The notes under the pieces: generated by a model
The model's input: the letters and a program-made list of their open reading frames with translations, nothing else
The model's database searches: none
Told to the model about the DNA's origin: nothing
Shown: piece after piece, positions 14,129 through 40,579 of the stretch
Position numbering within the stretch: position 1 is the first letter of the stretch
Layout: each line of letters starts with the position of its first letter
Position numbers and translations under genes: made by a program
NCBI GenBank assembly: GCA_964596185.1
Contig: CAZQUE010000001.1
Span: forward strand, 135,460 to 199,459
Source: an uncultured bacterium
GTDB lineage: Bacteria; Muiribacteriota; Ozemobacteria; Ozemobacterales; Ozemobacteraceae
Reading direction: 5' to 3'
Length of the DNA: 64,000 nt

Positions 14129-15139
14129 TTAGAACTGTTTTGATGCAGAGATTCTATGCGCGTCTCCCAGAGTTTCGTCGGCGTAGGAATAATCAAAACG
14201 CCAGGTATCGAGCTTGAAGCTGGCACCAAGAGTCAGGTCGCCGTCGTGGGCACCGAGTCTCAGAGCGGCATAGTCCTGTACCCAGTATTCTGCGCCGGCA
14301 TAAAGCTTGGCATCCATGTCTTCAACCTTGTTGATGTCGGCGGCGATTGTAAGCTTGTCATTGGGCTTATGGGCAACACCAACCTGAAGGGTGGTGGGAA
14401 CGCTATCAGAATGTCCTGAAGCTGTATCCCATTCGAGAGATTCACCAATGTCGCGAACAGACAGACCCAGAGTCGTCTTTTCGTTGGCTTCATAGAGGAA
14501 GCCGAGATCGAGGCCGAAACTGTCTGCCGAGTTGGTAAACAGATCCTGGCTCAGATATTTGAGGTTGATACCACCATACCAGCGATCAGCCAGTTTTTTG
14601 GCGTATGAACCGAAAGTTGCTTTTTCAGAATCATCGAAGTAGCTGAAAATGTAAACTGATTTACCGGGAGAATAAGTCCCGTCAGGATTGGTAGCCGGAA
14701 GATCCGTTCCTGCTGGAATCGCTGTTCCATCAAGAGTTGCAGGGGTGTTGCCTGTGCCATAAGTAGTGGCAAGCCGTGTTTCAGGAATACCATCAACGCC
14801 GAATCTGATGTGAGACAGGGCGACAACGCCATTGTCTTTGCCATCTTTGCCTTTAAGCGGATGCGCGTAGTTGAAGAAGTTGTATTCGCGATCCATGCTC
14901 AGGTCGGCGTGCATGAAAGAGCCTTCAGCCTTTTTCAGTTTGGCGAGTCCGGCCGGATTCCAAAACGCGGCGGTAGAGTCGTCGGCCAGTGCAGTGAATG
15001 CACTGCCCATGCCCAGAGCCCGGGCACCGACACCCATTTTCAGATATGCTCCCGCCTGGCCTGCGGATTCAGCAAAGGCAGTGCTCATGGTGCCTACGCT
15101 AAGAGCCACGAGGAAGAGAGTCTTTAAAACCTTTTTCAT
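14129..15139 (-). CDS. FadL/PorV-family outer-membrane beta-barrel protein
   Basis: Signal peptide MKKVLKTLFLVALSVGTMSTAFA. The FadL-type N-terminal hatch motif is present (GVGARALGMGSAFTALADDSTAAFWNPAGLAKL). The body has alternating-hydrophobic beta-strand character and ends in C-terminal ...ASKQF. I trimmed the start to ATG 15139. Confidence 0.55.
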   Translation of the reverse strand: MKKVLKTLFLVALSVGTMSTAFAESAGQAGAYLKMGVGARALGMGSAFTALADDSTAAFWNPAGLAKLKKAEGSFMHADLSMDREYNFFNYAHPLKGKDGKDNGVVALSHIRFGVDGIPETRLATTYGTGNTPATLDGTAIPAGTDLPATNPDGTYSPGKSVYIFSYFDDSEKATFGSYAKKLADRWYGGINLKYLSQDLFTNSADSFGLDLGFLYEANEKTTLGLSVRDIGESLEWDTASGHSDSVPTTLQVGVAHKPNDKLTIAADINKVEDMDAKLYAGAEYWVQDYAALRLGAHDGDLTLGASFKLDTWRFDYSYADETLGDAHRISASKQF

Positions 15140-15244: not shown

Positions 15245-15940
15245 TTAGATACCGGTCAGTCCAAGATCGAGCAGTGATTTGTAAATTTGCGCAACTGAGC
15301 TGTCATTAGAACTGTCTTCAGCTCGGGCAACGTTGATCTGTGATCGTGCTTTGTCCTGGTCACCCAGTTCGTTGCGCCAGAAATAACAGAAGGCCAGCAT
15401 TGCATGTGCTTCGGCATTGCTGATGCCAATGTCGTGAGTTGATTGGAACACGAAAGCGGTGTTGTTCAGACCTATTTGTTCCAGCACTTGAATCGCCTGT
15501 TTGAATCCTGCCAGTTGTCCGCGCTGAATCAGTGCGGAGGCCAGACCGATACGGGCTTCATTGTTGGTTGAGGCGGCCTGAGTAAAGGCTGAATAACCGG
15601 ACTCAACCCCTGAAGATTTGGTCAGTGCCCAGCCCAGACCATTATATGCGTGAGATTTCTGGTCATCGCTGATATTGCTGATCGTCAAAACTTCATTGAA
15701 TTTGTTTATTGCACTGCTGTAAGCGCCATAACGGAAGTCTTCCCATGCAGAAGCGATCAATGAGTCTGGATCAGTTTCACCGGTGCCGCCGGTTCCACCT
15801 GTTCCACCAGTGCCGCCGGTTCCCGGAGTCGGAATTTCGGGCGGAATGGTGTAACGTCCGCTGCCACCGCCGCTGCCGCAGCCGCTGGCTATGAGTATGA
15901 CAATGCCGATGGTAAACAGCACCAGTAGTTTTCTGTTCAT
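15245..15940 (-). CDS. Lipoprotein with (GTG)n linker and TPR-like domain (cassette 1)
   Basis: MNRKLLVLFTIGIVILIASGC is a lipobox. A GTGGTGGTGGTGGTGE linker precedes a TPR-like helical domain. The C-terminus SVAQIYKSLLDLGLTGI is shared with the 25913..26692 paralog. GGAGA SD. Starts 8-26 nt after the giant ORF stop. Confidence 0.6.
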   Translation of the reverse strand: MNRKLLVLFTIGIVILIASGCGSGGGSGRYTIPPEIPTPGTGGTGGTGGTGGTGETDPDSLIASAWEDFRYGAYSSAINKFNEVLTISNISDDQKSHAYNGLGWALTKSSGVESGYSAFTQAASTNNEARIGLASALIQRGQLAGFKQAIQVLEQIGLNNTAFVFQSTHDIGISNAEAHAMLAFCYFWRNELGDQDKARSQINVARAEDSSNDSSVAQIYKSLLDLGLTGI

Positions 15941-15966
15941 TTTGCTATCTCCAATCATATTCGCTA

Positions 15967-18900
15967 TCAGCGCAACACGGCGATTTTGTGCGTGTATTTA
16001 GCTTTTTTGCTCCAGTTGTCGGGATCTCTGACCGTAATCCTGGCGAAGTAAACGCCATTGGCAACCTGTTTGCCACCCGTTGAGCGCAGATCCCAGAGCA
16101 CATCCTGAACCTGCAGCAAACCGTTGGTTCCGGTTCTGATACTGAGGTTGTTCGAATCAGCGACCTTGTGGCCGGCGACATCGTAGATTTTAACTTCGAT
16201 TTCGCCCCAGTCGACATCAGGTCGATTGGTGCTGATGCGCAGATTTACCCGGGTTCTTGCCGGATTCGGGTATTGATTCACTTCGTAAATGACCAGCGGT
16301 GGCAGAACCTGGAAGCGCAGTGCCGGAGTGACAAGCTGATTGCCTGCTTTGTCGGCCAGCCGCAGCGACATTTCATATTCTCCACCGATCAGATCTTCGG
16401 TCGGAATGAAGCGTGCCATCTTGCCGCTTTCGTCAAACATAACCGGATAGGCTCGGTTGTTCATGATTACCTGACCTTTGGCTAAATCGATTCCTGAACC
16501 CAGTTCGTCAATATTCCAGACGAATGATGGTCGCGGTTCGCGAATCGGTTTATCGGCTTCAATCTTGGTAAGCATGTTGGCGCGTGGTGCAAGAACGTCT
16601 TTCATTATTGCAAAGGTGCCGGGTTCGTTGGCGAAGAATTCGATCTCGCCATCTTTCAGACTGTAGGCGACAGGCTTCCAGCCAAGGCTGAGATCGCTGC
16701 GATACAGGCCGGTGCCGGCTTCGAGCTGCTCGGTGCTGAGCTTGAAGTTGGCTTTGATGTTGCCGGCAATTCTTCCGGCCGCAATGTTGATGCTGTATGC
16801 AGTGCCAACCGGAATCAATTCTTCGGCGCTCTGGCCATCGGTTGCCGCGCTGGCTCTTATCGAACTGACCTGAGCTCTGGTAAGCTCGGCCATTACCGAA
16901 GGAACGATCATGGCAGCTCTGGTTTCGCTGGTGGGCACTTTGCTCAACTGCTCAGGCACGATGGCGACCAGGCTGTTTTCTTTGAGGGTTCCCGGTTCGA
17001 ACAATGCGGTGAAGTTGCGGTCTGGCGACTGCAGCGAGGCTCGCATCGAGGCATTGACGAAGGCCGTTGAGAAGCTCATGTTCGCGGTTCCGGTATTCGT
17101 AGAGATGTCGGTGGCGGTGACCTTGATCGTTGCCACGCCTGGGTAATTCATGTCGAGATGAGCGCCGCCGATGAAGATGCGATTGGTCGGGCCGGCATTG
17201 AGAACCAGCGATACGGCGGTTCCACCACTCTGGGTGATGACAGCTGTCGGAGCTCCTGACAAATCTTCATTTGAGCTGACGGCGATGCTGAAATCGAATT
17301 CATTGGCCGGGTTGCTGAATGCTGTGATGGTCAATACCGGCGGTGTGATGTCCTGACCCTGGAAGGTAACCCGGGCCAGTGAACTGTCGCTCGGGTTGCC
17401 GAAGAGATCTTCCACTCCAGAGGCGACGATAGTGTAGTTTCTGGTTTCAACGATGTCGTCATAAGCCGTGATCGTTACCGATTTCAGATCCGCACGCAGG
17501 CTTACCGACTCGATCGCAATTGTGTCGGTGCCGCTGGTGAGGTTGTAGTTGCCAACCTGCTGTGCGGTAATGTTCTCGATCTGTTCATCGAAGACGATAT
17601 TGAATTTTTTCTGAGAATTCAGACCGTCATAAGTGATCGCTGTAATGATCGGGCCAAGAGTGTCGGCGGTAAACAGTCCGGTGTTGTTGCCGGAAGTGAT
17701 CGGATCATCGTCGATACTTCTGAAACCCGGGTTAACAGTCAGGGTGTAGTTGGTGTTGTGAGTAAGTGGGTAGGTGAGCGGTATTTCGACGGTGTTGTCG
17801 TTTACGGTTATCGGGGTTACTGCACCGATGCCGACCGGAGTGGCCGGAGACAGGCTGTAATTGCTGGGTATTCCAGCATCAGCAGGATTGACCGCGTGGC
17901 TGAAAGTGACCCTGATATGGTCTTTGTCGATCTGCGCAACACTGGTAACCTTGAATACGGAGTTCACAACGGTGATGTCTTTGGTAACATCGGTGGATTC
18001 GTTTCCGGCCAGATCGGTTACCGACAGTTTGTATGTGCCGTCGACGACTGGCTGTCTGTTTGAATCCTTGCCATCCCATTCAACTTTGAACGGAGTCGCG
18101 GTTTCTTCAAGCAGCAGCTCGCGAACCAGCGAGGAGCCGGTGGTAATTCTTACCAGTGCGGTTCCAGAACTGACGCTGGCGTCGTTACTGCCAACTTCTA
18201 TTCGCAAAGGTGTGACGTTTGGATTGAAGCGGTTCACTTCATTGCCGTTGTCGACACGATATGTTCTGATATCGATTATAGATGGGGCTGTGCGGTCCAT
18301 GACCAGGGTTCCGGTAGCTATGCTGCCGACACCAAGAGGATCGCCGATATTGCCGGCATAATCGACGATGTTAACCATGTATTCGCCGTCGACAAGTGTG
18401 CCTTGCGGAGAGTTGGTGTCTTTGCCGTCGAAGCTGATGGTATAGCCGCCGCCACTCAGACCGGTCATCGGATAAGTGTCGGTCGAGAGGCCTGGGTTAA
18501 CCAGTCGCATTTTCAAGGCATCGCCTGAAGCAGGTCCGAAGGCATCGATCTTGGCAAAAGAACTGACCAGCGGGCTGAAATAGGCTTTGTTGTTGTAGGT
18601 TCGCACGTTACTGAACCGCCATGAAGTTACAACCGGAGCTTTGCCATCATATACGATGCTGCCGCGTTTGCTGGCTTCATTGCCGGCGTCGTCATAAACC
18701 CTGAGAACATAGGTTGTCGGTCCGGATTCGCCTACCAGGGTGCCACCAATGGTGCCATCCCAGTTGGCAGTGCCGGTAAGACCGCTGACTGTTATTGGCA
18801 GTGATTCTCGCAGAGCGTCGCCCTGGAAAATTTGCAGCCAGAGACTGGTTGCCAACGGCGCAGTCTGGAAGTTGATTGTAACTGTCGCGATTCCAGGGGC

Positions 18901-21900
18901 AACGTATGGGCTGAAGGGTTGATTATTCACGTCACCTGAAGGTGAAGTTAATTTTGCAGTGGTCGACTGATAGGTTGAAACGACGAATGAGTCGATGTTT
19001 GGCCCTTTTGACCTGATCTGCAGCTGACTTGGCAGGGCGACTTCGTTGTTGCCGCGGTTGCCGGCCTCATCATAGCCACCGGAAACGTAGTAGGTATAAG
19101 TGCCTTGCGGGGTATTGGCATCAAAGTTGGCAGAGTTGGTAAACCTTGCGGTGTAAGAATCCACCCATGACTGGAAAGTGAAGGACATAACGGTGTTAAG
19201 GCCATCACCAAGTCGCAGTTGCGGCTGGAAGCCACTGCCAACTGTCTGATCCATGGGTTCGTCGAAGGTTACTTCGAATTGCGCTGAATTTGCAGGAGTT
19301 ATACCGATCGTGCCGGTGGGAATTGCCGACAGCGGCACTGGCAGTTGATTGTCGAGCATCAGTGTGTAGCTTGCATTCTTGAAACCATTGACCGAATTGT
19401 CTTTGTCGCTGAGATTGTAAGAAAGCGAAGCTGTGTCGGTGTAGGTTGTCGGGCTGAAAACATCGGCATAGCCGCTGACTTCAACAAAACATGGTCTTCT
19501 TTGCAGATTTGAAGCGGTAAGGTCGCTGTTATTGGCAAATCTGGCTACAGTCCTGGTTATACCACCCTGAACATGATCGAGCCAGGCGATGAAGGTCGCG
19601 GTATCCTTGGGATTGACCTGATCATCCTGAGTGAAGAGTTTCAGGGTTGGAACCTTGGTCCTGTCTATGGGTATGTAGACATCTGCAGAAAGAGTTGCAG
19701 TGTTGAACGCTACTTCATAGTAGAAGTTGCCGACCGGTTGCCCTTTGCAAAGCTGAATCTGCTGAGCTGAAATCGATTTGGCCGGAGTGACTGCCAGGGT
19801 TTGGATTGCCGGGGGGGCAATGATCATCGGGAAAGTGACATTGATGATTTTCTGGGCAGTGCCACCCTGAACCGGGTAGCGAATGCTGCCATTGCCCCAA
19901 AGGTCGACGAACGCGCTTTCTGAACAGGCAATGAAGAATTCACTGGTTCCCCAGCTGAGCATGGTTCTGAGAGCTTCCGAAGTCAGCGGGATGGTTACCA
20001 CGTTCGAGGCATAGTCGGTGTTGTAAGTTTTGTAGGCAGTGTAATCAACCATCGTCTGGTTCAAGGGAATCGAACCATCGGTCAGGTCTGATTTGGCATA
20101 GAGATAGATTCTTGACAGGTCAACCGGCAGGTCACGGCTGAGTTCAATCGTTTCGGCCAGGTTTTTGTAAGGATCGAGATAAAGCCGGGCGCGTCTGAGG
20201 GGTGCTTTCTGGAATTCAATCTTGAGGAGCGGCTGTGCGCCTGAAAGATCGAGAGAAATTGCGCCATCGTCAATGGAGAATTGGCTGTTGAGAGGAATAA
20301 GAGTTGCCGGAGTCGCAACGGTGTAGTGAATCGGCATTACTCTATTGCCTTCGAAGTCTCTGATCAAAGGATCCGGATCGAATGGATCGGGTGGTTCATA
20401 CTCGGTTCCATTCACCTGCAGATGGAATTGTGCGCCGGTTCGGCCGTAATTAAGCGCGATCCAGTCTTTGGCTTGTTGCGAGAGCAGAATTTTCAATCTT
20501 CTGATGTCCATGTCGAATACCGCGTCGGGCGCAGCAGCAGTAATGAAGCGGTAGCGATTGGCATAGGTGTCAGAAGGATTGCCGCGGTTTTTCCAGATGG
20601 AAAGGTTGCGCAAGCTGTCATTGGTTATCGAGTTGGGATCCATATCCTTGTCGAAGTCGACATAGAGATAATCGGATTCAGAGGGCACATTGGCATTGTA
20701 ATAGCCGGTAACCAGCTTGGGTCTGGTCGTATAAACCGTGGGAATATTGACACTGGTGCTGGCAAGAGTTCTGGGCAGGGGCTGCAGCCAGTTGCCCGCT
20801 TCATCGAGAGCGATTGGATCATAGGTGTTCGGGGTTGCTTCACCGTTTGTCGTGCTGTGAGCCACCGAGATGTAGAGGTTGGTCTGGCCCCAATCGGCGA
20901 CAATCGCTTTGGTGCCGGTAGAAAGCATGACCTGAATCCGGTCGCTTGGGTAGGATTCGAAGATCGTGTCGTTGACCGGGTCAAGTGCTCTTGCTGCTCC
21001 GGGAATCTGAATGTCGTCATGATCCATTTTGCTGCCAATGCGAACCTTGTCGAGGTTCGTCTGAAAGAGTATTGGATCAATGGTTTCGGTAAAGTTCATC
21101 GTGAGAATGCGACCGTCATAACTGGCCGATTCAAGGCGCGGGCGAGTTGTATCGACGGCGAGTTCGTGATCGACGTATGTGTAGTTACCGGCGCCGTCGC
21201 GAACGTAGATTCTGAAGGTTCTGGTCGCCAAATCGAAGGTATTGGTTGCCAGTTCCATCGGCAGTGAATAGACTGTCAGCGGATTCTGAATCTGAGTCAG
21301 CTTATAGGTCGAGGTTGCTTCGATTTGTGAGAAGTCGACGAAGGCCATGCCGTTGCCGGTGACGTCGCCGGTATTGGTAACCGTTACCGAAGCCACGATT
21401 CCGTCGGGTGCGACTCGGTCACCTTCGCTTGGTCGGTAACCATCGCCAACGTTGGCGGCCCAGTTCTGCAGGTTGCGATTTTCGACGCGCAGATTAGAAT
21501 CGGTGATGACCGGAGGATCGTTGTCGATGGTGAAAGTAGCCAGCTTGAGTGCGCTGCTGACAATGTTCTGGGCATCGTCAGAAGCATAAACTCTGAATCT
21601 GGGGGTTTCACCATTCATTGCCGGCCAGCCGGTAATGGTTGTCGTAGCAACTCTGAACATACCTTCCCAGATTTCAGTGCCGGGCAGGTTGTAGATCGGA
21701 GTTCGGAAAGCTTCGGTGACGTTGTCGGCCCGATAGAGAATGAAGGTCGCTGAACCCGGGTCATCGAATTTCTTGATTTCGGTTCTTACGTAAAGAAGAT
21801 CGTCGATATTGATGCTGTTTGAAGCAATGTTGTCTTCATTTTCATCAAGAACCGAAAGAATAATGTTCTGTGGGTCAGGTAGCTTGGTGTCGACACCGAA

Positions 21901-25749: not shown

Positions 25750-25842
25750 GTAAATGGTTCCTCCGCGGTAGTGGAACTGATAGTTTTCGACTATTCAGTT
25801 AGTTAATCGGCACTTCGTAGAGAAACCTGTAGAAAAAAAACA

Positions 25843-32600: not shown

Positions 32601-35600
32601 GTGTCGGTTGAATAAACGATCTGGAAAGTCGCATCGCCGAGGTCGCGGCTCCAGGGTTGGTCTATAAGCGTTGCTGTAACATCAACAGTTGGTTGAACGG
32701 TTCTGACGCTTACATTACCCGAACTTACTTCCGGGGCATAGGTGCGAACTTCAACCGGATCAGTGAAAGTGGTGTCGAAACTGTTGGTCGCTTCGTCTCT
32801 ACCACCGGTTACTTCCCAGGTCCAGACGCCGTTAGCGGTAGCTTCGGTGAAGGCGGTATTGTTGGTGAAGACTGCGGTTTCAGAGGCAATCCAGTAGCTG
32901 AAGGTGAAGCTCATCGTCGTGGTTCCGGTTGCCAGGCGCAAAGTCGGGATGACGTTGGGATCCATTGCTTCGCTGAATTCTACTCTGAATTCTGAGCCAT
33001 AGGGGAGTCGGCCGATGTAGTCGCCCGGAATAACCTGCACAACAGACGGTTTCTGGGTGTCAAGTTCAATTGTGACTGAGGCGGTATCGGTGAATCCACC
33101 GGGTGCGCTATCGCTCTTCAAATTCAGATCGTAAGCCTGCGAGGCGGTTACAACATAGGCAGTGTCAAAGATGTCTCTGATATTGGTAACTTCGACGTAA
33201 ACCGGAACTCGTTGCAGGCCTGCTGGGAAGGCGGCGGCGTTGGTAAAGCGGGCGACGGTTCTTTCGAGCCCGTCGACGGTGCGATTGCTGTAGCTGATGA
33301 AACTGCCGTTGCAGATGACGGCATCGTTGTCCTGGCGCTTGATCTGGGCCGCAGGCTGGGCCTGGGTCTGGATCGGCACCGGGGCACCATCAAGATTGGG
33401 TGGGAAAATTTCTACTTCGAACGCCAATTCATTGATGGCTTTCTGATTTACCGGCGGTTTGTCGCTCATTGAGCAGGCGGCGACCGTGGCAGCGTTGTAG
33501 CCGACTGGGTAAATCATGTTGAGAGGGCCGGGGTTGCCAGAAGGCAGATAGGCGGTGTTGTTGGTTCCCCAGAGGTTGGTGAAAGCGCCGGCATTGATCT
33601 GCAGCCGCCAATCAGGAGTTGCACTGCTCTGAAAGAGGTTGATTACATTGTCGACATCAGTGGTTGTCAGTTTCAGAGAAATTGTCGTGCTGGCGTAGAG
33701 ATTGTCGGTGGGCAGTTGCAGGTCTTCGAGCTGAAGAACAAGCGAGGCTCCAGAATCATACTCATGCAGAATGATCTGGTTGTGGAATCCGGTCACTCTT
33801 CTGCTTAGTGAAGGAACTGGAGTATTTACCAGTGGATCGGTAGAATTAGCTCTGGTGAAATCGTTGGTGAACAGAAGCAGACGATCGCTGGCAGTTAGTT
33901 TGAGTGATCGACTGGCCATATCGAGTTCGGGCACGACAACATCGAAGTTGAAGGCCGGGGTGGGCCGGTTGTCAGCAGCATCCATCGGAGACTGACTTGA
34001 AATTGCCTTTACACTTCTCTGCAAATTGTCTTTTACAAAAGACATTCCATCTCGAATCGCAAACTTGAGCGTGTTGGCAGTGCCGATCTTGCGGGCGATC
34101 CAGTCGGTGCCGCTGGCATTGAGGGTGATGCGAACGTGGTTGTTTAGTGCGTCCGGCCATGAGATGGTGTCGCTTGGCGTGAACACGTAGCCATCGGCAT
34201 AGTCGACACTGCTGTAATCATAAGTCAGGTTCTTGTAGAGAAGAACGCCGCTGGAAGCACTGAGTGTCGTAGGTTCAACTTCTTTGTTGAAGTAAATGTC
34301 GATAACTGTTGCTGCGGGCCAGTTCTGCGTCATGGCAACCTGGCTCACTTCTGGCAACTCGCGCCATGATGAATCGGTTATGGTTACCGGATAGAAAGCT
34401 GCAGTCGGCAGCTCATTGGCGAACAGATCGGTAAGCGGTGAAGCTCCGGAATTGGTAATCTGTAGATACACCGGTGTTGAAGCCCAATTTCCGACGGTAA
34501 TCTGTTGCGCAGCATCGAGAGTGATGTCGAAGCTGTAGAGATTGGTGGTGTCGGGGACATTGGCGGCGAAGTTGAGATAGGCCGGCGTGCCGAGCGGGGC
34601 AGATGCACTGCCAACCAGCGTCCATTTGCTCATGTCGATACTGGCATTCTCATAGACTTCAGAGAGGTTTACCCTGATGGTCGTTCCGTCGAATTCGGCT
34701 GAAACGATTTGTGGGGCAACATTGTCGATTGTGTAGGTGAAGGTCGCGAAATCTTTGTTCCCACCTTCATCCTGGCCGATAACGTAGATTTCTCTGGTTT
34801 CGCCATTGATTGGTGGCAGGCTTGAAACCGGGATGCCGGCAATTGTCGTTGCGCTCGAGGCAGCCACTGCCATTTCGACTGTGCCGCTGCCGCAGTCGGA
34901 AAAGTCAATCCAGGCGCGATTCATGGTCGTGTCGCCGCTGAGGTAGGCATCGACATGCAGCAGATCGCCTACTGTCGAGGTGCCAAGATTGTAAGCGGTG
35001 TTCAAATCATAGTTTGGATTGAGGTCGGTAGTCGCAACCATTGTTGGGCGTTCATTTCTGACGGTAAAGGTCGAGTTGCCCTGAACCATGGTCGAAATGT
35101 TTGCGGCATCGTCTTCGGCGGTAAGTTTGTAATAAAGGGTGTTGCCGTTGTTGATGCCCCAGTTGCTGACGCCGGGTGCGCTTACCACGAAAGTAGCTTC
35201 GTGGCGATTCATTGCACTGTTGTAAACCATGGTCGCGGTCGCAAAATCAACTGTTCCTGAACCGATGGTCGCCTGAATGCTTACCGCGTCAAGGTAGGCG
35301 GCGGCACTTGCATAGACGGTCAGGACGTCATTTATGTTCGCAACATTGGCAACGGGATTGTCGCCATTAGTCTGGCTGATTTCGATGCCGTCGGCGGAGA
35401 AACTGATGGGTTGACAGTCGATGTTGAACTGAGCAGATTCGGCAAAAGCCAGATTGTTGTTGGAGTCATAGACCCTGGCTTTGAAAACGTAGTCAGTGTA
35501 TTCCTGATCGGCAGCCTGAGTATACAGGACCGGAGCCTGACCCCAGGTGTAGGTATCGATACCGTCGAAATCCATGGTTTCTGCGGCCGAATAGCCGATT

Positions 35601-38600
35601 GCGGTGAGGTCAAGGGTTACAGGCCCAGCTGAAGTCGTGCTGGTGATGCGCAGGGTAAAACTTGCCGTAGATCCGATATTAACTGGGTTGTTATCCGATT
35701 CAAACCAGAGAATGTCGGCGAGAACCGGCGGTGAATTGTCGATGGCCAGTTCGGTGGTGAAGGTTGAAACGTAGTTTTGATCGTTGTCCCAAGCGGTGAC
35801 ACTGAACGATGCAAGTTCGCCATCCCAGGTGCCGGTGCCGATTTCGGCGATATAGGCATAGTTGCCGCCGCCGGTCGCGGTCAGGGCCTGTTTGTCGCTA
35901 CCACCGAGAGTGGTCAGGTCAATGGTCGGAGCAACGTTTTCATGATTCTTGACCAGAACCGAGAATCTGATGCGGTCGCCGATCGCCAGAGGCAGAGTGC
36001 CGGCCTGAACCGTGGCAGTTGCGCCGAGAATTTCCGGCAGTTGGCAGTCGACGGTGTAAGAGTTTGACTGAGCCAGCGTCGAGTTGCCGGCCTGGTCGAA
36101 CAGAACGGCGTTGAACTTGTGCCCAAGGGCTTCATAGGTCGTTGAAGCGGTCGGTATAACGTATGAATACGAGGCTGAGTCGCTTGCAAGCAGCTGATTT
36201 GACGGGCCGCCGATAGCTGAAAGATCTATGGTGCCCGTAGCGTGGTCGATTGGGAAAGTTGAATAAGGGATATTGAATGAAACAATTTTGTTGAAGTTGA
36301 TCGTGCCGATTGCCGAATCGGTTCTTCCGGCTTTGTAAACAGACGAGTCGACATCGAAACCGTTAACGGTGATTGGGTAGTTGTCTATAGGGATGTAAAT
36401 GATGGTTGAGGTTGCATTGTTGGCGTTATCGACGGCAGTAACGGTGAAGCCGGTGTTAACCAGGTTGATGGTGCCGGTTGGAACTCCGCCTGGCAGAACA
36501 TAATCAAACCAGCCAGGGAAAGAGCTCGAGGCAAGCATGTTGGTATTAGCCGGCTGACCAAGAGGCAGCATGTTGATAGTAATGCTGGTCAGTTCACCTG
36601 TAGCCTGACTTGCGCTGGCAATGTCAGCGTGGAACGACAGGTAATCCTGTATGCGCACGTAACCGTTGTCTATGTCAGTATTGACGTTGTGATACGAGTT
36701 ACTGGCGATTCCGGCAATGTATGGCGGTTCGTTATCGATCATCATGCTGTTGGTGTTAAGACTTACATAATGAGCATCATCTAAGTATGGATTGCCGATT
36801 GTGTCATTGACCGTGATCTTGAAAGAGGTGTCGGCGTCGCAGATAACCCCTGCAGTAATTGAATCTTTCAGGGTAAAGTTGGCACTGTATACTCCGGGGG
36901 AGGTTTCCGGCAGATTCACCATTGTCGGTATGGGATAGGTCATATCGATGGCAGAAAGATCTACCGAGACAGAACCAAGTTCGACTCCGGTAACATTGGC
37001 TGTAATGGTGAAGGTGTCACCGACGTTGATGATTGAATCTGAGTTGGTGAGAGTTGCACTGGTAATAACAGGTAGAGTGCTATCGATGCGAATCGGTGGA
37101 TTGGTGTCGTCTTTAAGCAGCTGAGTTCCGTCTTTGTCGAGAATTGTCACCGGGAAATTGTAATAGGTGTCGTCTTCAAGACTTCCCGCGGGAATTGTAT
37201 AAACGGCGCGATAATTGTCGAGGCCGGCTACCTTCGGCATGGCCAGGGCTGCGGGCCCGCCGATCGAGCTGAGATCTACCGTCGCATTCAGCGGGGTCAA
37301 CAGTGTAGAAGCAGTGAGGCTGGCGACGATTTCAAGTTTGCAGGTGGCGGTGGCGTAATCGTTCACCACAGGTGTGTTATCGGGCATTAAAACTCTGATG
37401 TTGAGTTCATAAGGTCGATTGAAAAATTTATAGGTTGGCGTGTAATCTGAAACCATGTGGGCAATTACTGCCGCCGTGGTCGTTGCAATCGTGTCATTTG
37501 CCGAAACTTTGAGAGTTTTGTTGCCTTCAACGACAAGACCGGCCGAAGCTACGCTGAGAGTCGGCAAGGTGAAGGTGCCGGAATAGGTGGTGCCGGACTG
37601 CAGGGTAAGGGTTGCCACGCTCCATTCAGAGGAAAAGCCAAGCGGAGTCAAATCGACGGTTACTGAACCAGCTTCTATCTGGGTTGCCTGGGCGGTAATG
37701 GTGAAATCCATGCCGGCAAGAATGGTTGGCTGGGCTGCAGTTATCGTGATTCCGGAAAGGGTCGGTTGAATATTGTCGATGCCGATTGCTGGTGTTGTGT
37801 CGCGTTGGAATATCTGCGTGCTGTCTTTGTCGAGAATGGTTACGGTGAAGTTGTGATAGAGGTTGTCTTCAAGTGCCGGTGTACCGGCGGGGATCGTGTA
37901 AACGGTGCGGTATTCATCGGTTGCCCCGACTCTAGGCATGGCCTGGGTTGGAGAACCACCGATCGCACTCAGATCGACCGAGGCAGAAAGCGGGGTGATC
38001 ATTCCCTGAACCGGAACAACTGCACTGATAACGATTTTGCACGAAGTCGTCGCTACGTCGTAGGGTGAGTCAGCGTCATCAGGGTAAAGAACATCGGCGG
38101 TCAGAGTGAAATTTCCGTTATAAAACTTGTGATCGGGAGTGTTGGCAGTAACGGTGTGCGCTACCAAACCGACGGTTGTGGTGGCGATGGTGTCGTGGGC
38201 AGTAATTACAAAGCTGCGCGGACCTTCGACGAGCGGCACGGTGAACGGTGCGATCGTGCTCGATGCTTGAAGAACGAAGGTGTTCGAGTAAAGATTGCCA
38301 GAAACGAAGTTAAGGGGTTCGAATGCGCCGAGGCCGATACTACTCAGGTCTATGGTCAGCGAACCTGCTTCGATGAGGTTGGCTTCGGCGGTAACAGTGA
38401 AGGACTCACCGCTGATGACCGTCGGCTGAACGCTGGTGACGGTTATGTTTCCGAAAGTTGGTTGTACATTGTCGACGGCGACGGTTGGTACGGCGTCCAC
38501 CAGAGCCAGACGGTCGCCATCTTTGTCGTTGATGGTGACGGTGAAGCTGTTATAGACTACGTCTTCGGTCGTGCCTGGCGGTACTTCGTAAATGCATCGG

Positions 38601-40579
38601 TATTGTGTCGTTGCACCGACTCGAGGCATGGCCAGAGTCGGCGGGCCGCCGATTGAGGAGAAATCTGCGGTCAAGGCGAGCGGGTCAACGAATCCCAGGG
38701 TCGGTACATCGGCGGTGACGACTATTTTACAGGTCGTTGTCGCGACATTGTAGGTCGAGGGGGTATTGTCAGGGAACCAGACTTCGGCGCTGACGGAGAT
38801 GTCTCCGTTGAAGAATTTCTTGGCCGGTGTGGTCGCGGTTACTGAATGAGCAATTACATTGGTGCCCGTAGAAATTACTGTGTCTCTAGCGGTAACGACG
38901 AAGGTTCTGAGACCTTCAACGTAAGGTACCCCCGTTCCCGAAGCGGGAAGGGTGAAAGTGCCTGAATACGTGTCACCGGTAATGTACACCAGTGGTGAAT
39001 AGGTTGCCAGGCCGATACTTGAAAGGTTTACCGTTACTGAGCCGGTTTCGATAAGCGTTGCGTCTGCGGTTATGGTAAAGGTTTGTCCGGTGGTAACCGT
39101 GGCGTCGGCGCTGGTTAAGGTGATATTGGTCAGAGTCGGTGAAATGTTGTCGATGTGCACGGCGGGTGTCGTCGCTTGTACAACTGTGTTGCCGGCCTGG
39201 TCGACGGCTGTTACGACGAAGTTAAGATTTTGATTGTCTTCGGTTGCGCCGGCGACAATAGGATAAGTGTATCGGAAAAAATAAGGAAAAAGCATACTCA
39301 TCGGCTGGGCTGCTGGCCCACCGATGGGCGTCAGATCGACATTCAGGGTTAGAGTGTCGGGTGGCACATTGATCGGAATTGATGCAACAATTTCGAGTTG
39401 GCAGGTTGTCGTGCCGACATCGTATTGAGAGTTTGCTCCAAAAGGTTGAAGAATATTGGCGTAAAGGATATCGAAAGCTGGAGTTTCAAGATCGACTCCA
39501 ATATAGCGCTCGACGGTGCGAACGTTGCCGATGTCATCCGTGAAGGTAAAAACTACAAGAAGTGCGCTGTTTTTGATATCAGCGTCACTGAGATTGACGT
39601 CGAGTTGCCAGAGTGCAGGGTTTCCTTCACCGGATGAGCTAATCAGAGGCATCGCTACATCTGCAGATATTACTGGATTGGCTCCGGCGGTAAGTCCTGG
39701 TATTCTCACTGTGACAGTTTCATTGTCGTACTGAGAAACTACTGCGCTTAAGCGAAGAACGTCGCCGGCCAGAGCAGTCGTGTTTCCAGAGAGAACGGTA
39801 ACAGTTGTCTGAGCTGCATCAACCTGAGGAGGGCGAGTATCTAGCATAAAATCGTTGGTCACAAAAACAAAGGCCGGGTGCAGAGGATCTTTGAGCGTAA
39901 TCTGAAGTGCGCCAGTATATTCCCGGTTGGTTAGATAAAGCTGAGTGCTTGCATCGAGCTCAAGTTCAAAATAAGGAGTAGGCAGCGCACCTATGTAAGG
40001 AACTTCTACCGCACCGCCTCCGCCGATCGGAATCAGGTTAACCCAGGCTTTTGTTCCACCATAAGGTGCAGGCTGGTATCTCGTATCTTCTATTCTGATA
40101 GTAATATCCTGGCCGTTGGGAACCAGCAGAGGTGAAACCTGCGGATTTTGTCCTGCGACCTGGCAGAGATCGACTAGCATGGTGTTGGTAATTTCGCTCG
40201 GCAAAGCTCCCCCAATCGTCTGGGCACGAACCGTAACACTGGTATTGGCAAAATTCAATGTATTGACATATTCATTGAGGACTACGTCTACCTGATATTG
40301 CCCGATAGGCTGATTTACCATGTTCATGACGTATTCGCCGAGTCCAAGATTCGAGCAGTCGGCAAAAGGTGGAATTAACCACGCTTCAGTTAAAGGGTTG
40401 GTATAGGTTGCCACTGCCGCAATGCGCACTGTATCGCCAAAGTTCGCATAGCCGTTGCCGTCAACATCGTTTTGCAGGGTGAGATAAACAGCATCGATTT
40501 CGATAACCGCTTCTACCGGTGCAGAAAATAAAAATATCGAAAAAATCAAAGCGAAGAACAGCAGACTTAATCGCTTCAT
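26696..40579 (-). CDS. Giant (4627 aa) secreted cadherin/Ig-like repeat surface protein with T9SS C-terminal sorting domain
   Basis: Signal peptide MKRLSLLFFALIFSIFLFSAPVEA. Four tandem ~215-aa repeats near the N-terminus, with many further modules. The C-terminal ~1000 aa is paralogous to the 3260-aa protein (DLTPPVL..SAFSNPANE.., ...ANGVYFARIEIKDPDNPSKKVKETFKIAILR). AAGGAG SD. Confidence 0.85.
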   Translation of the reverse strand: MKRLSLLFFALIFSIFLFSAPVEAVIEIDAVYLTLQNDVDGNGYANFGDTVRIAAVATYTNPLTEAWLIPPFADCSNLGLGEYVMNMVNQPIGQYQVDVVLNEYVNTLNFANTSVTVRAQTIGGALPSEITNTMLVDLCQVAGQNPQVSPLLVPNGQDITIRIEDTRYQPAPYGGTKAWVNLIPIGGGGAVEVPYIGALPTPYFELELDASTQLYLTNREYTGALQITLKDPLHPAFVFVTNDFMLDTRPPQVDAAQTTVTVLSGNTTALAGDVLRLSAVVSQYDNETVTVRIPGLTAGANPVISADVAMPLISSSGEGNPALWQLDVNLSDADIKNSALLVVFTFTDDIGNVRTVERYIGVDLETPAFDILYANILQPFGANSQYDVGTTTCQLEIVASIPINVPPDTLTLNVDLTPIGGPAAQPMSMLFPYFFRYTYPIVAGATEDNQNLNFVVTAVDQAGNTVVQATTPAVHIDNISPTLTNITLTSADATVTTGQTFTITADATLIETGSVTVNLSSIGLATYSPLVYITGDTYSGTFTLPASGTGVPYVEGLRTFVVTARDTVISTGTNVIAHSVTATTPAKKFFNGDISVSAEVWFPDNTPSTYNVATTTCKIVVTADVPTLGFVDPLALTADFSSIGGPPTLAMPRVGATTQYRCIYEVPPGTTEDVVYNSFTVTINDKDGDRLALVDAVPTVAVDNVQPTFGNITVTSVQPTVISGESFTVTAEANLIEAGSLTIDLSSIGLGAFEPLNFVSGNLYSNTFVLQASSTIAPFTVPLVEGPRSFVITAHDTIATTTVGLVAHTVTANTPDHKFYNGNFTLTADVLYPDDADSPYDVATTSCKIVISAVVPVQGMITPLSASVDLSAIGGSPTQAMPRVGATDEYRTVYTIPAGTPALEDNLYHNFTVTILDKDSTQIFQRDTTPAIGIDNIQPTLSGITITAAQPTILAGMDFTITAQATQIEAGSVTVDLTPLGFSSEWSVATLTLQSGTTYSGTFTLPTLSVASAGLVVEGNKTLKVSANDTIATTTAAVIAHMVSDYTPTYKFFNRPYELNIRVLMPDNTPVVNDYATATCKLEIVASLTASTLLTPLNATVDLSSIGGPAALAMPKVAGLDNYRAVYTIPAGSLEDDTYYNFPVTILDKDGTQLLKDDTNPPIRIDSTLPVITSATLTNSDSIINVGDTFTITANVTGVELGSVSVDLSAIDMTYPIPTMVNLPETSPGVYSANFTLKDSITAGVICDADTSFKITVNDTIGNPYLDDAHYVSLNTNSMMIDNEPPYIAGIASNSYHNVNTDIDNGYVRIQDYLSFHADIASASQATGELTSITINMLPLGQPANTNMLASSSFPGWFDYVLPGGVPTGTINLVNTGFTVTAVDNANNATSTIIYIPIDNYPITVNGFDVDSSVYKAGRTDSAIGTINFNKIVSFNIPYSTFPIDHATGTIDLSAIGGPSNQLLASDSASYSYVIPTASTTYEALGHKFNAVLFDQAGNSTLAQSNSYTVDCQLPEILGATATVQAGTLPLAIGDRIRFSVLVKNHENVAPTIDLTTLGGSDKQALTATGGGNYAYIAEIGTGTWDGELASFSVTAWDNDQNYVSTFTTELAIDNSPPVLADILWFESDNNPVNIGSTASFTLRITSTTSAGPVTLDLTAIGYSAAETMDFDGIDTYTWGQAPVLYTQAADQEYTDYVFKARVYDSNNNLAFAESAQFNIDCQPISFSADGIEISQTNGDNPVANVANINDVLTVYASAAAYLDAVSIQATIGSGTVDFATATMVYNSAMNRHEATFVVSAPGVSNWGINNGNTLYYKLTAEDDAANISTMVQGNSTFTVRNERPTMVATTDLNPNYDLNTAYNLGTSTVGDLLHVDAYLSGDTTMNRAWIDFSDCGSGTVEMAVAASSATTIAGIPVSSLPPINGETREIYVIGQDEGGNKDFATFTYTIDNVAPQIVSAEFDGTTIRVNLSEVYENASIDMSKWTLVGSASAPLGTPAYLNFAANVPDTTNLYSFDITLDAAQQITVGNWASTPVYLQITNSGASPLTDLFANELPTAAFYPVTITDSSWRELPEVSQVAMTQNWPAATVIDIYFNKEVEPTTLSASSGVLLYKNLTYDYSSVDYADGYVFTPSDTISWPDALNNHVRITLNASGTDWIARKIGTANTLKFAIRDGMSFVKDNLQRSVKAISSQSPMDAADNRPTPAFNFDVVVPELDMASRSLKLTASDRLLLFTNDFTRANSTDPLVNTPVPSLSRRVTGFHNQIILHEYDSGASLVLQLEDLQLPTDNLYASTTISLKLTTTDVDNVINLFQSSATPDWRLQINAGAFTNLWGTNNTAYLPSGNPGPLNMIYPVGYNAATVAACSMSDKPPVNQKAINELAFEVEIFPPNLDGAPVPIQTQAQPAAQIKRQDNDAVICNGSFISYSNRTVDGLERTVARFTNAAAFPAGLQRVPVYVEVTNIRDIFDTAYVVTASQAYDLNLKSDSAPGGFTDTASVTIELDTQKPSVVQVIPGDYIGRLPYGSEFRVEFSEAMDPNVIPTLRLATGTTTMSFTFSYWIASETAVFTNNTAFTEATANGVWTWEVTGGRDEATNSFDTTFTDPVEVRTYAPEVSSGNVSVRTVQPTVDVTATLIDQPWSRDLGDATFQIVYSTDTVQHWPHVLEVYDAANTRYGQVAISVPVSRVATATFTNADFDPLFDPGVSGPTDYKIRIIDSAMNQTDQVATLTYDNLAPDVTSITMTGIGSETTNISYYNPMIGAFNLNATTGISSDELKLAIYSVTDNATTTYDMTQTSLRNYNVSTGNMLAEGAYILSIIDRAGNIGTGLAQRGLIVDKSNPTVLSVVPDTLIGNSPADGTTFTVIFSEPMDAGIEPTLTLATAGTTITMNFAGWADANLASTAYYTNAIEIETSMPSGFYNYDIVGGKDLAGNILIAPSAGTFKVEVMTDGPFAQISHLTDQSAVYGVADGIKTNYAFNGVGSATINITYPAGPFNTPHRLNVYDKDDVLVSSSGAVLNNINEQLIFPNDFNLTDPLYTYTDQTYSFKLIDDEDNVSGSALASSLKYDATAPDVATITISGLGTFSTGAYYYSPNQGDVQFTVETNNDETLKFVFLSPAVSPVATQAIDLETTDARTHVATFGSTLVDDVYIIGAVDTAGNIGNNATLLIVDSDAPTVSSATPLIAGGHAAGTGVFVIEFDEAMNRSVTPTANIASTSTTIPLTFTSWIDATHCQFTNTNDLTLYNTGSYSYQITGARDLAGNENENPLIGSFTIDLYTQSPLVTAVLYSQQPMVSADIRMNEPFSLNVAPGVATLTLYYNEAPTQIPHMLWIYDNDDNLTASITFTPDVGNKIASITVDANFFDNIDATPGDEPGNNGPLSYKFKLVDQIGNISATNSTIITYDALAPVIDSAAIGPVSDGSNDPLYYNEALYGPLYLKFGSTATDSLRLVIAGNNATNTYSLNLDDAADEYSASLTTSQASALATGTYTITAVDLAGNFATGASATTVLIIDRQAPTVTGVVSLNGEPLTSEPIGGATFTVTFNESMKASATPLLSIATGSTVIGCAFDSWLDAPAYTQAQFVTTSEITPDLPQGEYEYRVTGWDLTGNKLDNAVVGTVVVQSRGPVIATIFAESMQATTASGTEILRDTPFSFAVAPNAATLTVTLSQDPDALPINLHFMQSGVTVASYPLTYDAVSKSATFTWSLTNGPVPTIYPTTYQIKLVDDSGDFSLESYDWTVDASAPVALDLPTVTRGAVATDSVYFNPSRQSYLNVSFNSVDTDALRMRIRGANSTDTYALNAAGANTWAGNFDGRYSRGTDPKPLMPDGIYSLDLVDQAGNVGLLASGDPILYNIIIDTVEPAVSTYSTYVNGNPVTAYSPAAGNLEIRVESTDTLSESGIFWVDVLNSSNIKIKQLPLTDSGAYFSAFWDGTNSAGSTVLDGTYSFRATDYAGNPANISISIFALTTPFKVVGAVQISSSTAKLVFNHEVDANLAGAAITAAGLTISNIQKIEAQAVSFSVTPNFAHQATYEFQATPGTISSIYGAGIAAPNNTAPMLADGQGPVLSSVNFSGLSGQQEFKVVFDESYKPATAGDIGKYSLTGPSGALAIAAATTQADTKTVLLTAASNLIENADYQISVTGIEDVYGNLSPSPNSINFKGRDLTPPVLEVSAFSNPANESDIIVVVVSNEDLKAPPVLQIAQSNAPVITTNMQQGANSRSFMIGVHLSPSYPGNGTLVATAQDLAGNQGSGNSTFAVAYLSANKVASVKSADEKLVAEFSTGSLKDNAMFKIMGHRLEAGNETSTSIRTALQQQARLALGLRASQTQASAIDQTELKPVSMAYEVAIAAEKVKEGFNVFVEIPQATSTTGLGLFYQTNDQWKFLTAKPTRGSSFAAKAASTQLFAILRDVKGPEVALAADIDLNEPFRTPRPEFRGKITDAGSGLDITTVTAHIDSGPAQNVTVDNSGNFTFKPMADLTGGWHDLVIRAKDNTGNDSAMTAVRFEVVVPLQITQIAQYPNPARVRTFIRISANRGDVSEDLVKVKIYDVAGHRVATLDGIKPVNEKWGINARYLYDIPWDLRNASGKLVANGVYFARIEIKDPDNPSKKVKETFKIAILR
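36750..39200 (-). repeat. Intragenic tandem repeats (~650-690 bp, 3.5 units) inside the 4627-aa gene
   Basis: Repeat boundaries recur near 39170, 38520, 37810 and 37130 (for example ...gtcgacggcgacggttggtac... / ...gtcgatgccgattgctggtgt...). Protein units start (I/V)DN(I/V)xPT(L/F) and are ~40-50% identical to each other. Confidence 0.6.

What the first reader, a model, noticed from the sequence alone, without database searches (positions are those of the whole stretch)
14129..40579. Duplicated cassettes: giant T9SS-cargo adhesin plus translationally coupled TPR lipoprotein, with a FadL/PorV-like OMP
On the minus strand the gene order is a 4627-aa giant, then lipoprotein-2 with a 3-nt gap, then a terminator, then a 3260-aa giant, then lipoprotein-1 with a gap of about 26 nt, then a FadL/PorV-family barrel. 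The two giants share about 1000 aa of their C-termini including the T9SS CTD, and the two lipoproteins are paralogs. The arrangement recalls Flavobacterium sprB-sprF, where a giant adhesin is paired with a dedicated PorP-like OMP, but here the partner is a small lipoprotein. The conserved pairing suggests a dedicated chaperone, anchor or export accessory for each giant cargo. Together the two giants take up about 23.7 kb, or 37% of the window.
Basis: partly seen in the sequence, partly recalled or inferred. Interest (0 to 1): 0.75.

Follow-up and report, generated by a model that had tools for sequence, protein, structure and literature searches.

The report
Giant surface proteins with dedicated lipoproteins
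Two huge surface proteins of an uncultured Riflebacteria bacterium each carry a type IX secretion-style sorting tail and are each followed by their own small lipoprotein, a pairing that recurs in many uncultured phyla and points to an undescribed helper for exporting or anchoring such proteins.

Summary
On the minus strand lie giant2 (4627 aa), lipo2, a strong terminator, giant1 (3260 aa), lipo1 and a PorV/PorQ-family barrel. The organism belongs to Candidatus Riflebacteria.

- **Sorting tail.** A profile of the giants' C-terminal domains matches the P. gingivalis PorU CTD (E 4.6e-15), and a confident model's best fold match is PorU. The window's own copies score just below the curated cut-offs.
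- **Lipoproteins.** They form an uncurated family of about 170-aa TPR domains with the signature AYNGLGW.
- **Pairing.** All 60 Riflebacteria-type loci with upstream DNA have a CTD protein directly upstream, in three co-duplicated cassette classes. So do at least 54 of 68 metagenome loci, with a median gap of 12 nt and unrelated passenger domains.
- **Barrel.** It is optional.
- **The giants.** Giant1 is collinear across the phylum and constant in length, which suggests a core envelope protein rather than a variable adhesin.

My best reading is a cargo-specific lipoprotein partner for export or anchoring, with the barrel as CTD dock, parallel to PG1035–PorP–PorE. I could not test whether Riflebacteria have a T9SS core, and no physical interaction was tested.

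The parts
26696..40579 (-). giant2: 4627-aa secreted protein with an N-terminal signal peptide, Ig-like domains and a C-terminal sorting domain
   Evidence: ORF; Big_5, Big_13 and FlgD_ig hits; paralog of giant1; acidic, pI 4.2, Thr-rich
36800..39442 (-). tandem ~228-aa repeats inside giant2 (aa ~380-1260)
   Evidence: fragment self-comparison, 40-55% identity between units
26699..27028 (-). giant2 C-terminal domain (last 110 aa), T9SS type-A-like
   Evidence: PF18962 at 23.8 bits when scanned alone; 132.7 bits against the CTD profile
25913..26692 (-). lipo2: 259-aa lipoprotein (lipobox TIGC), GRQILPGENP motif, (TGTGTS)n linker and a TPR domain; starts 3 nt after the giant2 stop
   Evidence: orthologs in L044, L047, L058 and L060
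25853..25878 (-). intrinsic-terminator-like hairpin followed by a T-run, separating the two cassettes
   Evidence: 11-bp stem with 10 G-C pairs
15967..25749 (-). giant1: 3260-aa secreted protein; phylum-wide collinear ortholog
   Evidence: ORF; orthologs 41-82% identical over the full length, 3214-3301 aa; Big_13, Big_5 and Por_Secre_tail hits
15970..16299 (-). giant1 C-terminal domain (last 110 aa), T9SS type-A-like and PorU-like
15245..15940 (-). lipo1: 231-aa lipoprotein (lipobox ASGC), GRYTIPPEIP motif, Gly/Thr linker and a ~170-aa TPR domain (the ORF extends to 15958)
   Evidence: AF2 pLDDT above 90 for the TPR domain
14129..15139 (-). PorV/PorQ-family outer-membrane beta-barrel, 336 aa (the ORF extends to 15181)
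   Evidence: NF033709 132.3 bits against a cut-off of 90; the only PDB sequence match is F. johnsoniae PorV; present after lipo1 in 33 ORF hits, all directly after a lipo1 ortholog

Best explanation
Each giant is exported by Sec. It carries a PorU/PorZ-like type-A sorting domain at its C-terminus. It is made together, probably 1:1 through translational coupling, with a cognate outer-membrane TPR lipoprotein.

The lipoprotein is a cargo-specific partner. It either escorts the cargo's C-terminal region to the outer-membrane export or sorting machinery, or holds the finished protein at the outer membrane. Where a PorV/PorQ-family barrel is encoded next to the pair, as for giant1 here, the barrel is the dock for the CTD, which is probably retained. 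The result would be a three-part anchorage of surface protein, 14-strand barrel and periplasmic TPR lipoprotein, like PG1035-PorP-PorE or PorZ-PorQ in P. gingivalis.

Giant1 is a core envelope protein of the phylum, a coat or fibre. Giant2 is a repeat-expanded paralog from an old duplication of the whole cargo-plus-lipoprotein unit.

Shown: the gene anatomy, the paralogy, the CTD and barrel family assignments, and the conserved pairing.

Inferred: physical binding, the topology of the lipoprotein, retention of the CTD, and the export route.
For: **Pairing**
- All 60 Riflebacteria-type loci with upstream DNA (54 distinct pairs) have a CTD protein ending directly before the lipoprotein, in three paralog classes that co-diverge.
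- In genome loci from other phyla the same order holds, with TIGR04183-positive cargo.
- In 80 metagenome loci, 51 of 68 with an upstream ORF have a C-terminal CTD, with a median gap of 12 nt. Three of the misses that I re-tested also pass TIGR04183.
- The passenger domains are unrelated to one another (subtilase, ExeM-like nuclease, glycosidase-like, Ig giants). The constant feature is therefore the CTD.

**CTD identity**
- All 23 CTDs hit PF18962.
- The CTD profile matches the PorU CTD at E 4.6e-15 and the PorZ CTD at 2e-4.

**Barrel and lipoprotein**
- The barrel scores 132 bits on NF033709.
- The lipoprotein has a lipobox in all homologs and a confident TPR fold.

**Precedent from the literature**
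- PorZ and PorU are held on the surface by the PorQ and PorV barrels, and the PorZ CTD is not cleaved (PMC8545088).
- PorE (a TPR lipoprotein), PorP (a barrel) and PG1035 (a CTD protein) form an anchorage complex (PMC9143113).
- Cognate shuttle genes lie next to type B cargo genes (PMC12618676).
Against: - No interaction was tested.
- The window's CTDs are below the curated cut-offs.
- The barrel is missing next to the pair in the gut/rumen clade, in cassette 2, in class 3, and in 79 of 80 metagenome loci. The three-part model is therefore not general unless a barrel encoded elsewhere serves.
- Unlike PorE, the lipoprotein has no peptidoglycan-binding domain.
- The TPR fold match is generic, with eukaryotic APC subunits scoring as high as PilF.
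- Whether Riflebacteria have any T9SS translocon is unknown. Published work places them in the diderm Terrabacteria, where no T9SS has been reported.
Confidence: 0.5

Rival explanations
1. The C-terminal domain is only an FlgD-type Ig domain, and the system has nothing to do with type IX secretion. The giants would cross the outer membrane by another route, for example the type II/type IV pilus-like machinery encoded nearby. The lipoprotein and barrel would then serve that route or general envelope organisation.
For: The window's CTDs score below the curated T9SS cut-offs and also hit FlgD_ig and FlgD structures. Riflebacteria are classed as diderm Terrabacteria, and no paper links them to T9SS. 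PilB/PilT-like ATPases lie near the cassette in 35 Riflebacteria loci.
Against: The best sequence and fold matches of the CTD are to T9SS CTDs (PorU, PorZ, mirolase), well ahead of FlgD. The adjacent barrel is PorV/PorQ family. Partner cargo in other phyla passes TIGR04183. None of the 80 metagenome loci has a PilB-like ATPase nearby, so the pilus synteny is specific to this lineage.
Confidence: 0.17
2. The TPR lipoprotein is an adaptor for a C-terminal processing protease, in the way NlpI serves Prc and LbcA serves CtpA (from my own knowledge of those systems). It would present the giant's tail for cleavage and maturation.
For: In one Riflebacteria species an S41 CtpB-like peptidase with a PDZ domain directly follows the lipoprotein (L002, L003, L045). 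The lipoprotein is a small outer-membrane TPR lipoprotein like NlpI.
Against: The S41 gene is adjacent in only 3 of the 72 loci then held (L001-L072), all from one species, in none of the 80 metagenome loci, and not in the window. The profile of the lipoprotein family (A1) gave no NlpI or LbcA match among solved structures, and lipo1 and lipo2 gave no NCBIfam match at all.
Confidence: 0.08
3. The lipoprotein is a PilF/PilW/Tgl-type pilotin for a type IV pilus secretin, and its position after the giants is incidental synteny.
Against: The scores are far below the cut-offs (33.5 against 154). Three paralogs per genome each follow a CTD protein, and outside Riflebacteria the pairing holds without any pilus genes. 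No secretin gene appeared in the window proteins scanned or among the called genes of the loci fetched with Pfam annotation.
Confidence: 0.05
4. The lipoprotein is a purely periplasmic, transient chaperone that keeps the very long cargo export-competent and does not remain with it. It would be an escort, not an anchor.
For: TPR domains commonly bind extended peptides or C-terminal tails. The coupling is tight and the specificity is one chaperone per cargo. The long disordered Gly/Thr linker after the lipid anchor would let the TPR domain reach into the periplasm.
Against: Partner cargo ranges from about 720 aa to over 4600 aa, so size alone is not the reason. Nothing computed here separates an escort from an anchor.
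Confidence: 0.2

Closest known systems
PG1035-PorP-PorE anchorage complex of P. gingivalis (PMC9143113)
   Same: It has three parts: a surface protein held by its CTD, a 14-strand FadL-like outer-membrane barrel, and a TPR-containing outer-membrane lipoprotein on the periplasmic side.
   Different: There the CTD is type B, the barrel is PorP/SprF family, and PorE is a large four-domain protein with a peptidoglycan-binding OmpA_C domain. Here the CTD is type-A-like, the barrel is PorV/PorQ family, and the lipoprotein is a single ~170-aa TPR domain. It is duplicated once per cargo and gives no PorE model hit.
PorU-PorV and PorZ-PorQ pairs of the T9SS attachment complex (PMC8545088)
   Same: The CTD is most similar to those of PorU and PorZ. 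Those proteins stay on the surface bound to PorV and PorQ barrels, and the PorZ CTD is not cleaved. A PorV/PorQ-family barrel is encoded beside giant1.
   Different: The giants have no C25 peptidase or beta-propeller passenger. The barrel misses the PorV and PorQ equivalog cut-offs (52 against 250; 70 against 220). No lipoprotein partner is known for PorU or PorZ.
sprB-sprF and other type B cargo with cognate PorP/SprF shuttle genes in F. johnsoniae (PMC12618676)
   Same: A giant surface protein is genetically linked to its own dedicated accessory, and the pairs are duplicated with matching specificity.
   Different: That accessory is a beta-barrel, not a lipoprotein, and the CTD is type B. 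According to that paper, all type A CTDs use the general PorV shuttle. A cargo-specific partner for type A cargo is the new element here.
PilF/PilW/Tgl pilotin lipoproteins of type IV pili
   Different: There is no significant sequence membership. The client here is a CTD protein, not a secretin, and the pairing holds without pilus genes.
TfsA/TfsB S-layer proteins of Tannerella forsythia (from my own knowledge, not checked here)
   Same: Two large paralogous CTD proteins are encoded in tandem and form a glycosylated surface coat. Here the giants are acidic and rich in sequons, and two AglB-like oligosaccharyltransferases lie nearby.
   Different: No S-layer evidence exists for Riflebacteria. 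The giants are two to three times larger, and TfsA/TfsB have no cognate lipoproteins that I know of.

Membership tests
T9SS type A sorting domain (TIGR04183 / PF18962) | Score at or above the curated cut-off | tested here: inconclusive
   Window giant1: TIGR04183 21.1 against 23 and PF18962 26.1 against 27. Giant2 CTD alone: PF18962 23.8 against 27. Class-3 paralogs and partner cargo in other phyla pass, with 24-37 bits. All 23 CTDs hit PF18962 at E below 0.01.
T9SS type A sorting domain (TIGR04183 / PF18962) | C-terminal beta-sandwich fold like solved T9SS CTDs | tested here: met
T9SS type A sorting domain (TIGR04183 / PF18962) | Conserved motifs: PNP near the start, G-x-Y, and a K in the last strand at the extreme C-terminus | tested here: met
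   Invariant P9 N10 P11, G82, Y84 and K105 in alignment A2. All sequences end in K(I/F/V)AV(L/M)(R/K).
T9SS type A sorting domain (TIGR04183 / PF18962) | The genome encodes the T9SS core (SprA/Sov, PorK/L/M/N, PorT, PorU, PorZ) | not testable with these tools
   Only 20-kb loci could be fetched, and no query sequences for the core proteins were available. None appear in the window. No literature exists on the point.
PorV/PorQ family outer-membrane protein (NF033709) | Score at or above the family cut-off | tested here: met
   132.3 bits against 90. The only PDB sequence match is FjPorV 6h3i_F.
PorV, PorQ or PorV2 equivalogs (NF033710, NF033711, NF052325) | Score at or above the equivalog cut-off | tested here: not met
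   52.1 against 250, 69.6 against 220 and 96.3 against 325. It is a family member but not an ortholog of any named component.
SprB/SprF-type system (type B CTD TIGR04131 plus PorP/SprF barrel) | Type B CTD on the cargo and a PorP_SprF-family partner | tested here: not met
   No TIGR04131 hit, and CHU_C only 17.6 against 27 on giant1. The barrel gives no PorP_SprF hit.
PorW/SprE or PorE (the TPR lipoproteins of the T9SS) | Match to NF052312 or NF052230 | tested here: not met
PilF/PilW/Tgl pilotins (TIGR02521, NF033762) | Score at or above the cut-off, and association with a secretin | tested here: not met
   Lipo1 and lipo2 give no hit. A class-3 paralog scores 33.5 against 154 and 25.4 against 225. 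There is no pilus ATPase near the pair in the 80 metagenome loci.
Bacterial lipoprotein | Signal peptide ending in a lipobox Cys | tested here: met
   L-A-S-G-C or an equivalent is present in the window copies and in all homologs inspected. The Cys is invariant in A1 and A5. This is pattern reading, not a dedicated predictor.

The most novel reading that the evidence does not exclude
The small 'AYNGLGW' TPR lipoproteins are a previously unrecognised class of cargo-cognate accessory for type-A-CTD proteins, the type A counterpart of the PorP/SprF partners of type B cargo. They are spread across many uncultured phyla. In Riflebacteria, a diderm Terrabacteria lineage, the module of CTD, PorV/Q barrel and lipoprotein would operate either with an unreported T9SS or with a different translocon. 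That would mean the sorting and anchoring half of type IX secretion is older or more mobile than the Bacteroidota/FCB machine.
Probability: 0.3. Interest if true: 0.8.

Novelty: new variant of a known kind. Interest (0 to 1): 0.62.

Why it matters
Type A CTD cargo is thought to need only the general PorV shuttle. A dedicated, co-duplicating lipoprotein partner would add a new component and a specificity layer to type IX-style sorting. It would also give a simple genomic marker, a CTD gene followed within about 10 nt by an AYNGLGW lipoprotein gene, for a subclass of surface proteins.

The finding also puts a T9SS-like sorting signal and a PorV-family barrel in a phylum outside the FCB group. 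That makes the distribution and origin of the system directly testable.

Finally, it identifies a 3260-aa, phylum-wide, length-conserved envelope protein. This is likely a major surface structure of Riflebacteria, of which no cultured isolate is known to me.

Tried and rejected
1. **Co-folding the CTD with the lipoprotein.** No interaction model exists.
2. **Looking for a Riflebacteria PorU through its CTD.** Both protein searches with CTD queries returned only short fragments, so they say nothing about PorU.
3. **Extending the window.** Exact look-ups of the terminal genes found nothing on record.
4. **Broad metagenome scan.** It was redone with A6.
5. **NlpI-Prc-like adaptor idea.** The S41 peptidase is adjacent in only one species.
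6. **Pilotin/T4P idea.** There are no pilus ATPases near the pair outside Riflebacteria.
7. **Self-BLAST for internal repeats.** It gave nothing until I redid it with fragments.
8. **RNA genes.** Rfam and tRNA scans of the window found nothing.
9. **Literature.** Searches linking Riflebacteria to T9SS returned nothing.

Full report
**1. Observation**

The ORF list shows the stated genes on the minus strand:
- giant2, 26696-40579, 4627 aa
- lipo2, 25913-26692, 259 aa
- giant1, 15967-25749, 3260 aa
- lipo1, 15245-15958, 237 aa
- an OMP, 14129-15181, 350 aa

Reading the junctions:
- The giant2 stop and the lipo2 ATG are 3 nt apart, with GAGG just upstream.
- Giant1 and lipo1 are 8 nt apart. From the second ATG (15940, MNRK..., the start used by the orthologs) the gap is 26 nt.
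- Lipo1 and the OMP signal-peptide start (15139) are 105 nt apart. The 336-aa OMP form is an exact database entry.

An 11-bp, 10-GC hairpin with a T-run at 25878-25853 separates the two cassettes.

The lipoproteins are 47% identical over 171 aa. The giants share their last ~1165 aa at 34% identity, plus weaker collinear similarity upstream. Both giants begin with signal peptides (by inspection of the sequence). They are acidic (pI 4.2-4.5) and rich in Thr and Asn. The window has exactly two CTD proteins, two lipoproteins and one PorV-like barrel.

**2. Organism and setting**

All 77 protein-level relatives of lipo1 come from Candidatus Riflebacteria/Ozemobacteraceae MAGs or from unlabelled metagenome contigs.

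The flanks encode aroE, PilB, PilT, a prepilin peptidase, hisS, a che operon and two AglB-like oligosaccharyltransferases.

Witwinowski et al. class Riflebacteria with the diderm Terrabacteria, which have OmpM tethers. That is outside the FCB group, to which the T9SS is usually assigned (abstracts). No paper in the library links Riflebacteria with T9SS.

**3. The parts**

*C-terminal domain.*
- Giant1 gives PF18962 26.1 bits (cut-off 27) and TIGR04183 21.1 bits (cut-off 23). It gives a stronger hit (62.6 bits) to the C-terminal 150 positions of the PorU model.
- The giant2 CTD scanned alone gives PF18962 23.8 bits.
- All 23 representative CTDs from this and related loci hit PF18962 at E below 0.01, with a best value of 3.7e-8.
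- Their profile matches the CTD of P. gingivalis PorU (6za2, residues 1056-1154) at E 4.6e-15 and the CTD of PorZ at 2e-4. FlgD matches are much weaker.
- The motifs PNP, G-x-Y and the terminal K-x-AVLR strand are invariant or nearly so.

I conclude that this is a type-A-like T9SS CTD of the PorU/PorZ/FlgD-Ig subtype. It is borderline for the window copies on single-sequence thresholds.

*Barrel.* It scores 132.3 bits on NF033709, the PorV/PorQ family (cut-off 90). It falls far below the PorV, PorQ and PorV2 equivalog cut-offs. Its only PDB sequence match is F. johnsoniae PorV. JGI calls it a FadL-type protein.

*Lipoprotein.*
- It has an invariant lipobox Cys, a conserved GRY(T)(I/L)PxE(I/V)P motif, a disordered Gly/Thr linker, and a ~170-aa domain.
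- AF2 models that domain with pLDDT above 90 as a TPR superhelix.
- There is no NCBIfam hit, and only TPR_19 in Pfam.
- An alignment across all classes shows a family signature: GW..F..G.Y..AI.KF and (D/E)AYNG(L/I)GW..K.
- Against 1.84 billion representatives the profile finds 131 clusters at E of 1e-10 or better. Most are full-length 190-280-aa proteins. This is a small, uncurated family.

**4. Is the pairing conserved?**

*Riflebacteria and related genome loci.* A genome-collection scan gave 67 loci, and look-ups gave five more. With my own ORF calling and phmmer, every one of the 60 Riflebacteria-type loci that has upstream DNA carries a CTD protein ending directly before the lipoprotein. 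These are 54 distinct pairs.

Three paralog classes co-diverge:
- **Class 1:** giant1 plus lipo1.
- **Class 2:** giant2 plus lipo2 (L044, L047, L058, L060). L058 shows the window's order, giant2-lipo2-giant1.
- **Class 3:** a 1660-1810-aa CTD protein plus a 211-221-aa lipoprotein elsewhere in the same genomes. For example, L008 and L063 both lie on OZ223236.1. The class-3 CTDs pass TIGR04183 (37.0 and 24.3 bits).

None of the 77 protein hits is closer to lipo2 than to lipo1, so the duplication is old.

*The barrel.* It follows lipo1 in 33 ORF hits, all directly after a lipo1 ortholog. It is absent next to the pair in the gut/rumen clade, in cassette 2 and in class 3.

*Other phyla, genome loci.* Distant ~200-aa lipoprotein homologs in Poribacteria, TA06, Bacteroidota and unnamed MAGs again sit 7-50 nt after a CTD protein. 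Four of the six upstream proteins tested pass TIGR04183 and one is borderline.

*Other phyla, metagenome loci.* A metagenome scan with these distant members found 218 relatives, of which 80 loci were kept.
- 68 loci have an upstream ORF.
- 51 of those carry a C-terminal CTD by my Riflebacteria-derived HMM, with a median gap of 12 nt and several 4-nt overlaps.
- Three of the 17 misses that I re-tested pass TIGR04183.
- The total is therefore at least 54 of 68.

The passengers of these cargo proteins are unrelated to one another. They include a subtilase, an ExeM-like nuclease, glycosidase-like and MXAN_2561-like proteins, and the Ig giants. The constant partner of the lipoprotein is therefore the CTD, not a particular enzyme.

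CTD proteins without a following lipoprotein also occur in the same loci. Only a subset of CTD cargo has this partner.

**5. The giants**

Giant1 orthologs are collinear from end to end. They are 41-82% identical, and their lengths stay within 3214-3301 aa. This is unlike repeat-variable adhesins and suggests a core structural envelope protein of the phylum.

Giant2 is variable: 3051 aa in L047 against 4627 aa here. It contains ~228-aa tandem repeats that are 40-55% identical.

Both giants have about 1.25 N-x-S/T sequons per 100 aa, against 0.1-0.9 in neighbouring proteins. Two AglB-like oligosaccharyltransferase genes lie 7-13 kb away. This is a lead for N-glycosylation and is untested.

**6. 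Mechanism**

Three things argue for a cargo-specific protein partner rather than a general machine part: the tight or overlapping junctions, the one-lipoprotein-per-cargo rule, and the co-duplication.

Published precedents:
- PorU and PorZ stay on the surface bound to the PorV and PorQ barrels, and the PorZ CTD is not cleaved (PMC8545088).
- The type B protein PG1035 is held by the barrel PorP, which is bound on the periplasmic side by the TPR lipoprotein PorE (PMC9143113).
- Type B cargo genes sit beside their cognate PorP/SprF shuttles, while type A cargo is said to use only PorV (PMC12618676).

The giant1 cassette has the same three kinds of part. I therefore favour this model: the CTD, probably retained, docks on the PorV/Q-like barrel, and the lipoprotein acts as a cognate escort or anchor at the inner face of the outer membrane. 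I put my confidence in this at about 0.5.

None of the following were tested: binding, topology, CTD retention, and the translocon.

Rivals:
- A non-T9SS route with an FlgD-type Ig tail.
- A transient chaperone only.
- An NlpI-like protease adaptor. The S41 peptidase is adjacent in one species only.
- A pilotin. There are no pilus ATPases near the pair in the 80 metagenome loci, against 35 Riflebacteria loci that have them.

**7. Comparison and novelty**

This is not a sprB-sprF system. There is no type B CTD and no PorP/SprF barrel. The lipoprotein is not PorW/SprE, PorE, PilF/PilW or Tgl by any model.

It works most like the PG1035-PorP-PorE or PorZ-PorQ anchorage, but with a new, small lipoprotein family that is duplicated once per cargo and attached to type-A-like cargo. 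I rate it a new variant of a known kind.

**8. Limits**

The key refutation test, the presence of core T9SS genes in Riflebacteria, could not be run. Several loci come from the same organisms, so counts of loci overstate independent events. My CTD HMM was built from the same family that it was used to count.

Noticed in passing
window 2532-4832 (+), 4850-7093 (+), 7107-9893 (-): Two tandem AglB/PglB-like oligosaccharyltransferase paralogs sit next to a 928-aa sulfatase/LtaS-like membrane protein. The same genes follow the cassette in the JGI contig L073. Given the sequon-rich giants, this is a lead for N-glycosylation of the surface proteins.
   Followed up: partly
window 54760-57564 (-): A 934-aa fusion joins an [FeFe]-hydrogenase-like H-cluster domain and 4Fe-4S motifs to HAMP and methyl-accepting chemotaxis signalling domains. 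It lies inside a che operon (CheA 57585-60206, CheB 53130-54263, CheR 52244-53095) and looks like a hydrogenase-type chemoreceptor.
   Followed up: no
window 45310-48798 (-): A 1162-aa PilB/GspE-like ATPase with an MshEN domain carries a C-terminal extension of about 600 aa that matches no family.
   Followed up: no
window 15245-15940 (-) and orthologs (alignment A1): A conserved short motif, G-R-Y-(T)-(I/L)-P-x-E-(I/V)-P, lies in the disordered stretch just after the lipid-anchor Cys of class-1 and class-2 lipoproteins (GRQILPGENP in lipo2). It is absent from class 3 and from homologs in other phyla. It could be a sorting or binding motif.
   Followed up: no
L002 10799-12223; also L003 and L045: In one Riflebacteria species a CtpB-like S41 C-terminal processing peptidase with a PDZ domain directly follows the lipoprotein, in place of the PorV-like barrel.
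   Followed up: yes
L070 10675-11757; L071 10581-11768: In two loci from unnamed MAGs a SurA/PrsA-type peptidyl-prolyl isomerase gene directly follows the CTD-protein/lipoprotein pair. A PPIase is a subunit of the F. johnsoniae T9SS translocon complex.
   Followed up: no
L131 727-1758, 1881-5930, 5935-6567: This is the only metagenome locus with all three parts together, but in a different order: PorV-like barrel, then a 1349-aa CTD protein, then the lipoprotein 5 nt later.
   Followed up: partly
L007 and L055 (DYKG01), L031, L041, L042, L054, L056: Contigs that carry Riflebacteria-type cassettes are labelled in their records as Methylomirabilis, Erysipelotrichia, Avigastranaerophilus, Cloacimonadota or Actinomycetota. 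These are probably mis-binned or mis-classified MAGs.
   Followed up: no
window 13664-14008 (-): A 114-aa ORF lies between the barrel and aroE. The gene at the same place in the near-identical JGI contigs L073-L075 has the same size and carries STAS-domain hits, and 113-116-aa STAS genes hold that position in class-1 loci of other genomes. The window copy itself was not scanned. Its relation to the cassette is unknown.
   Followed up: no
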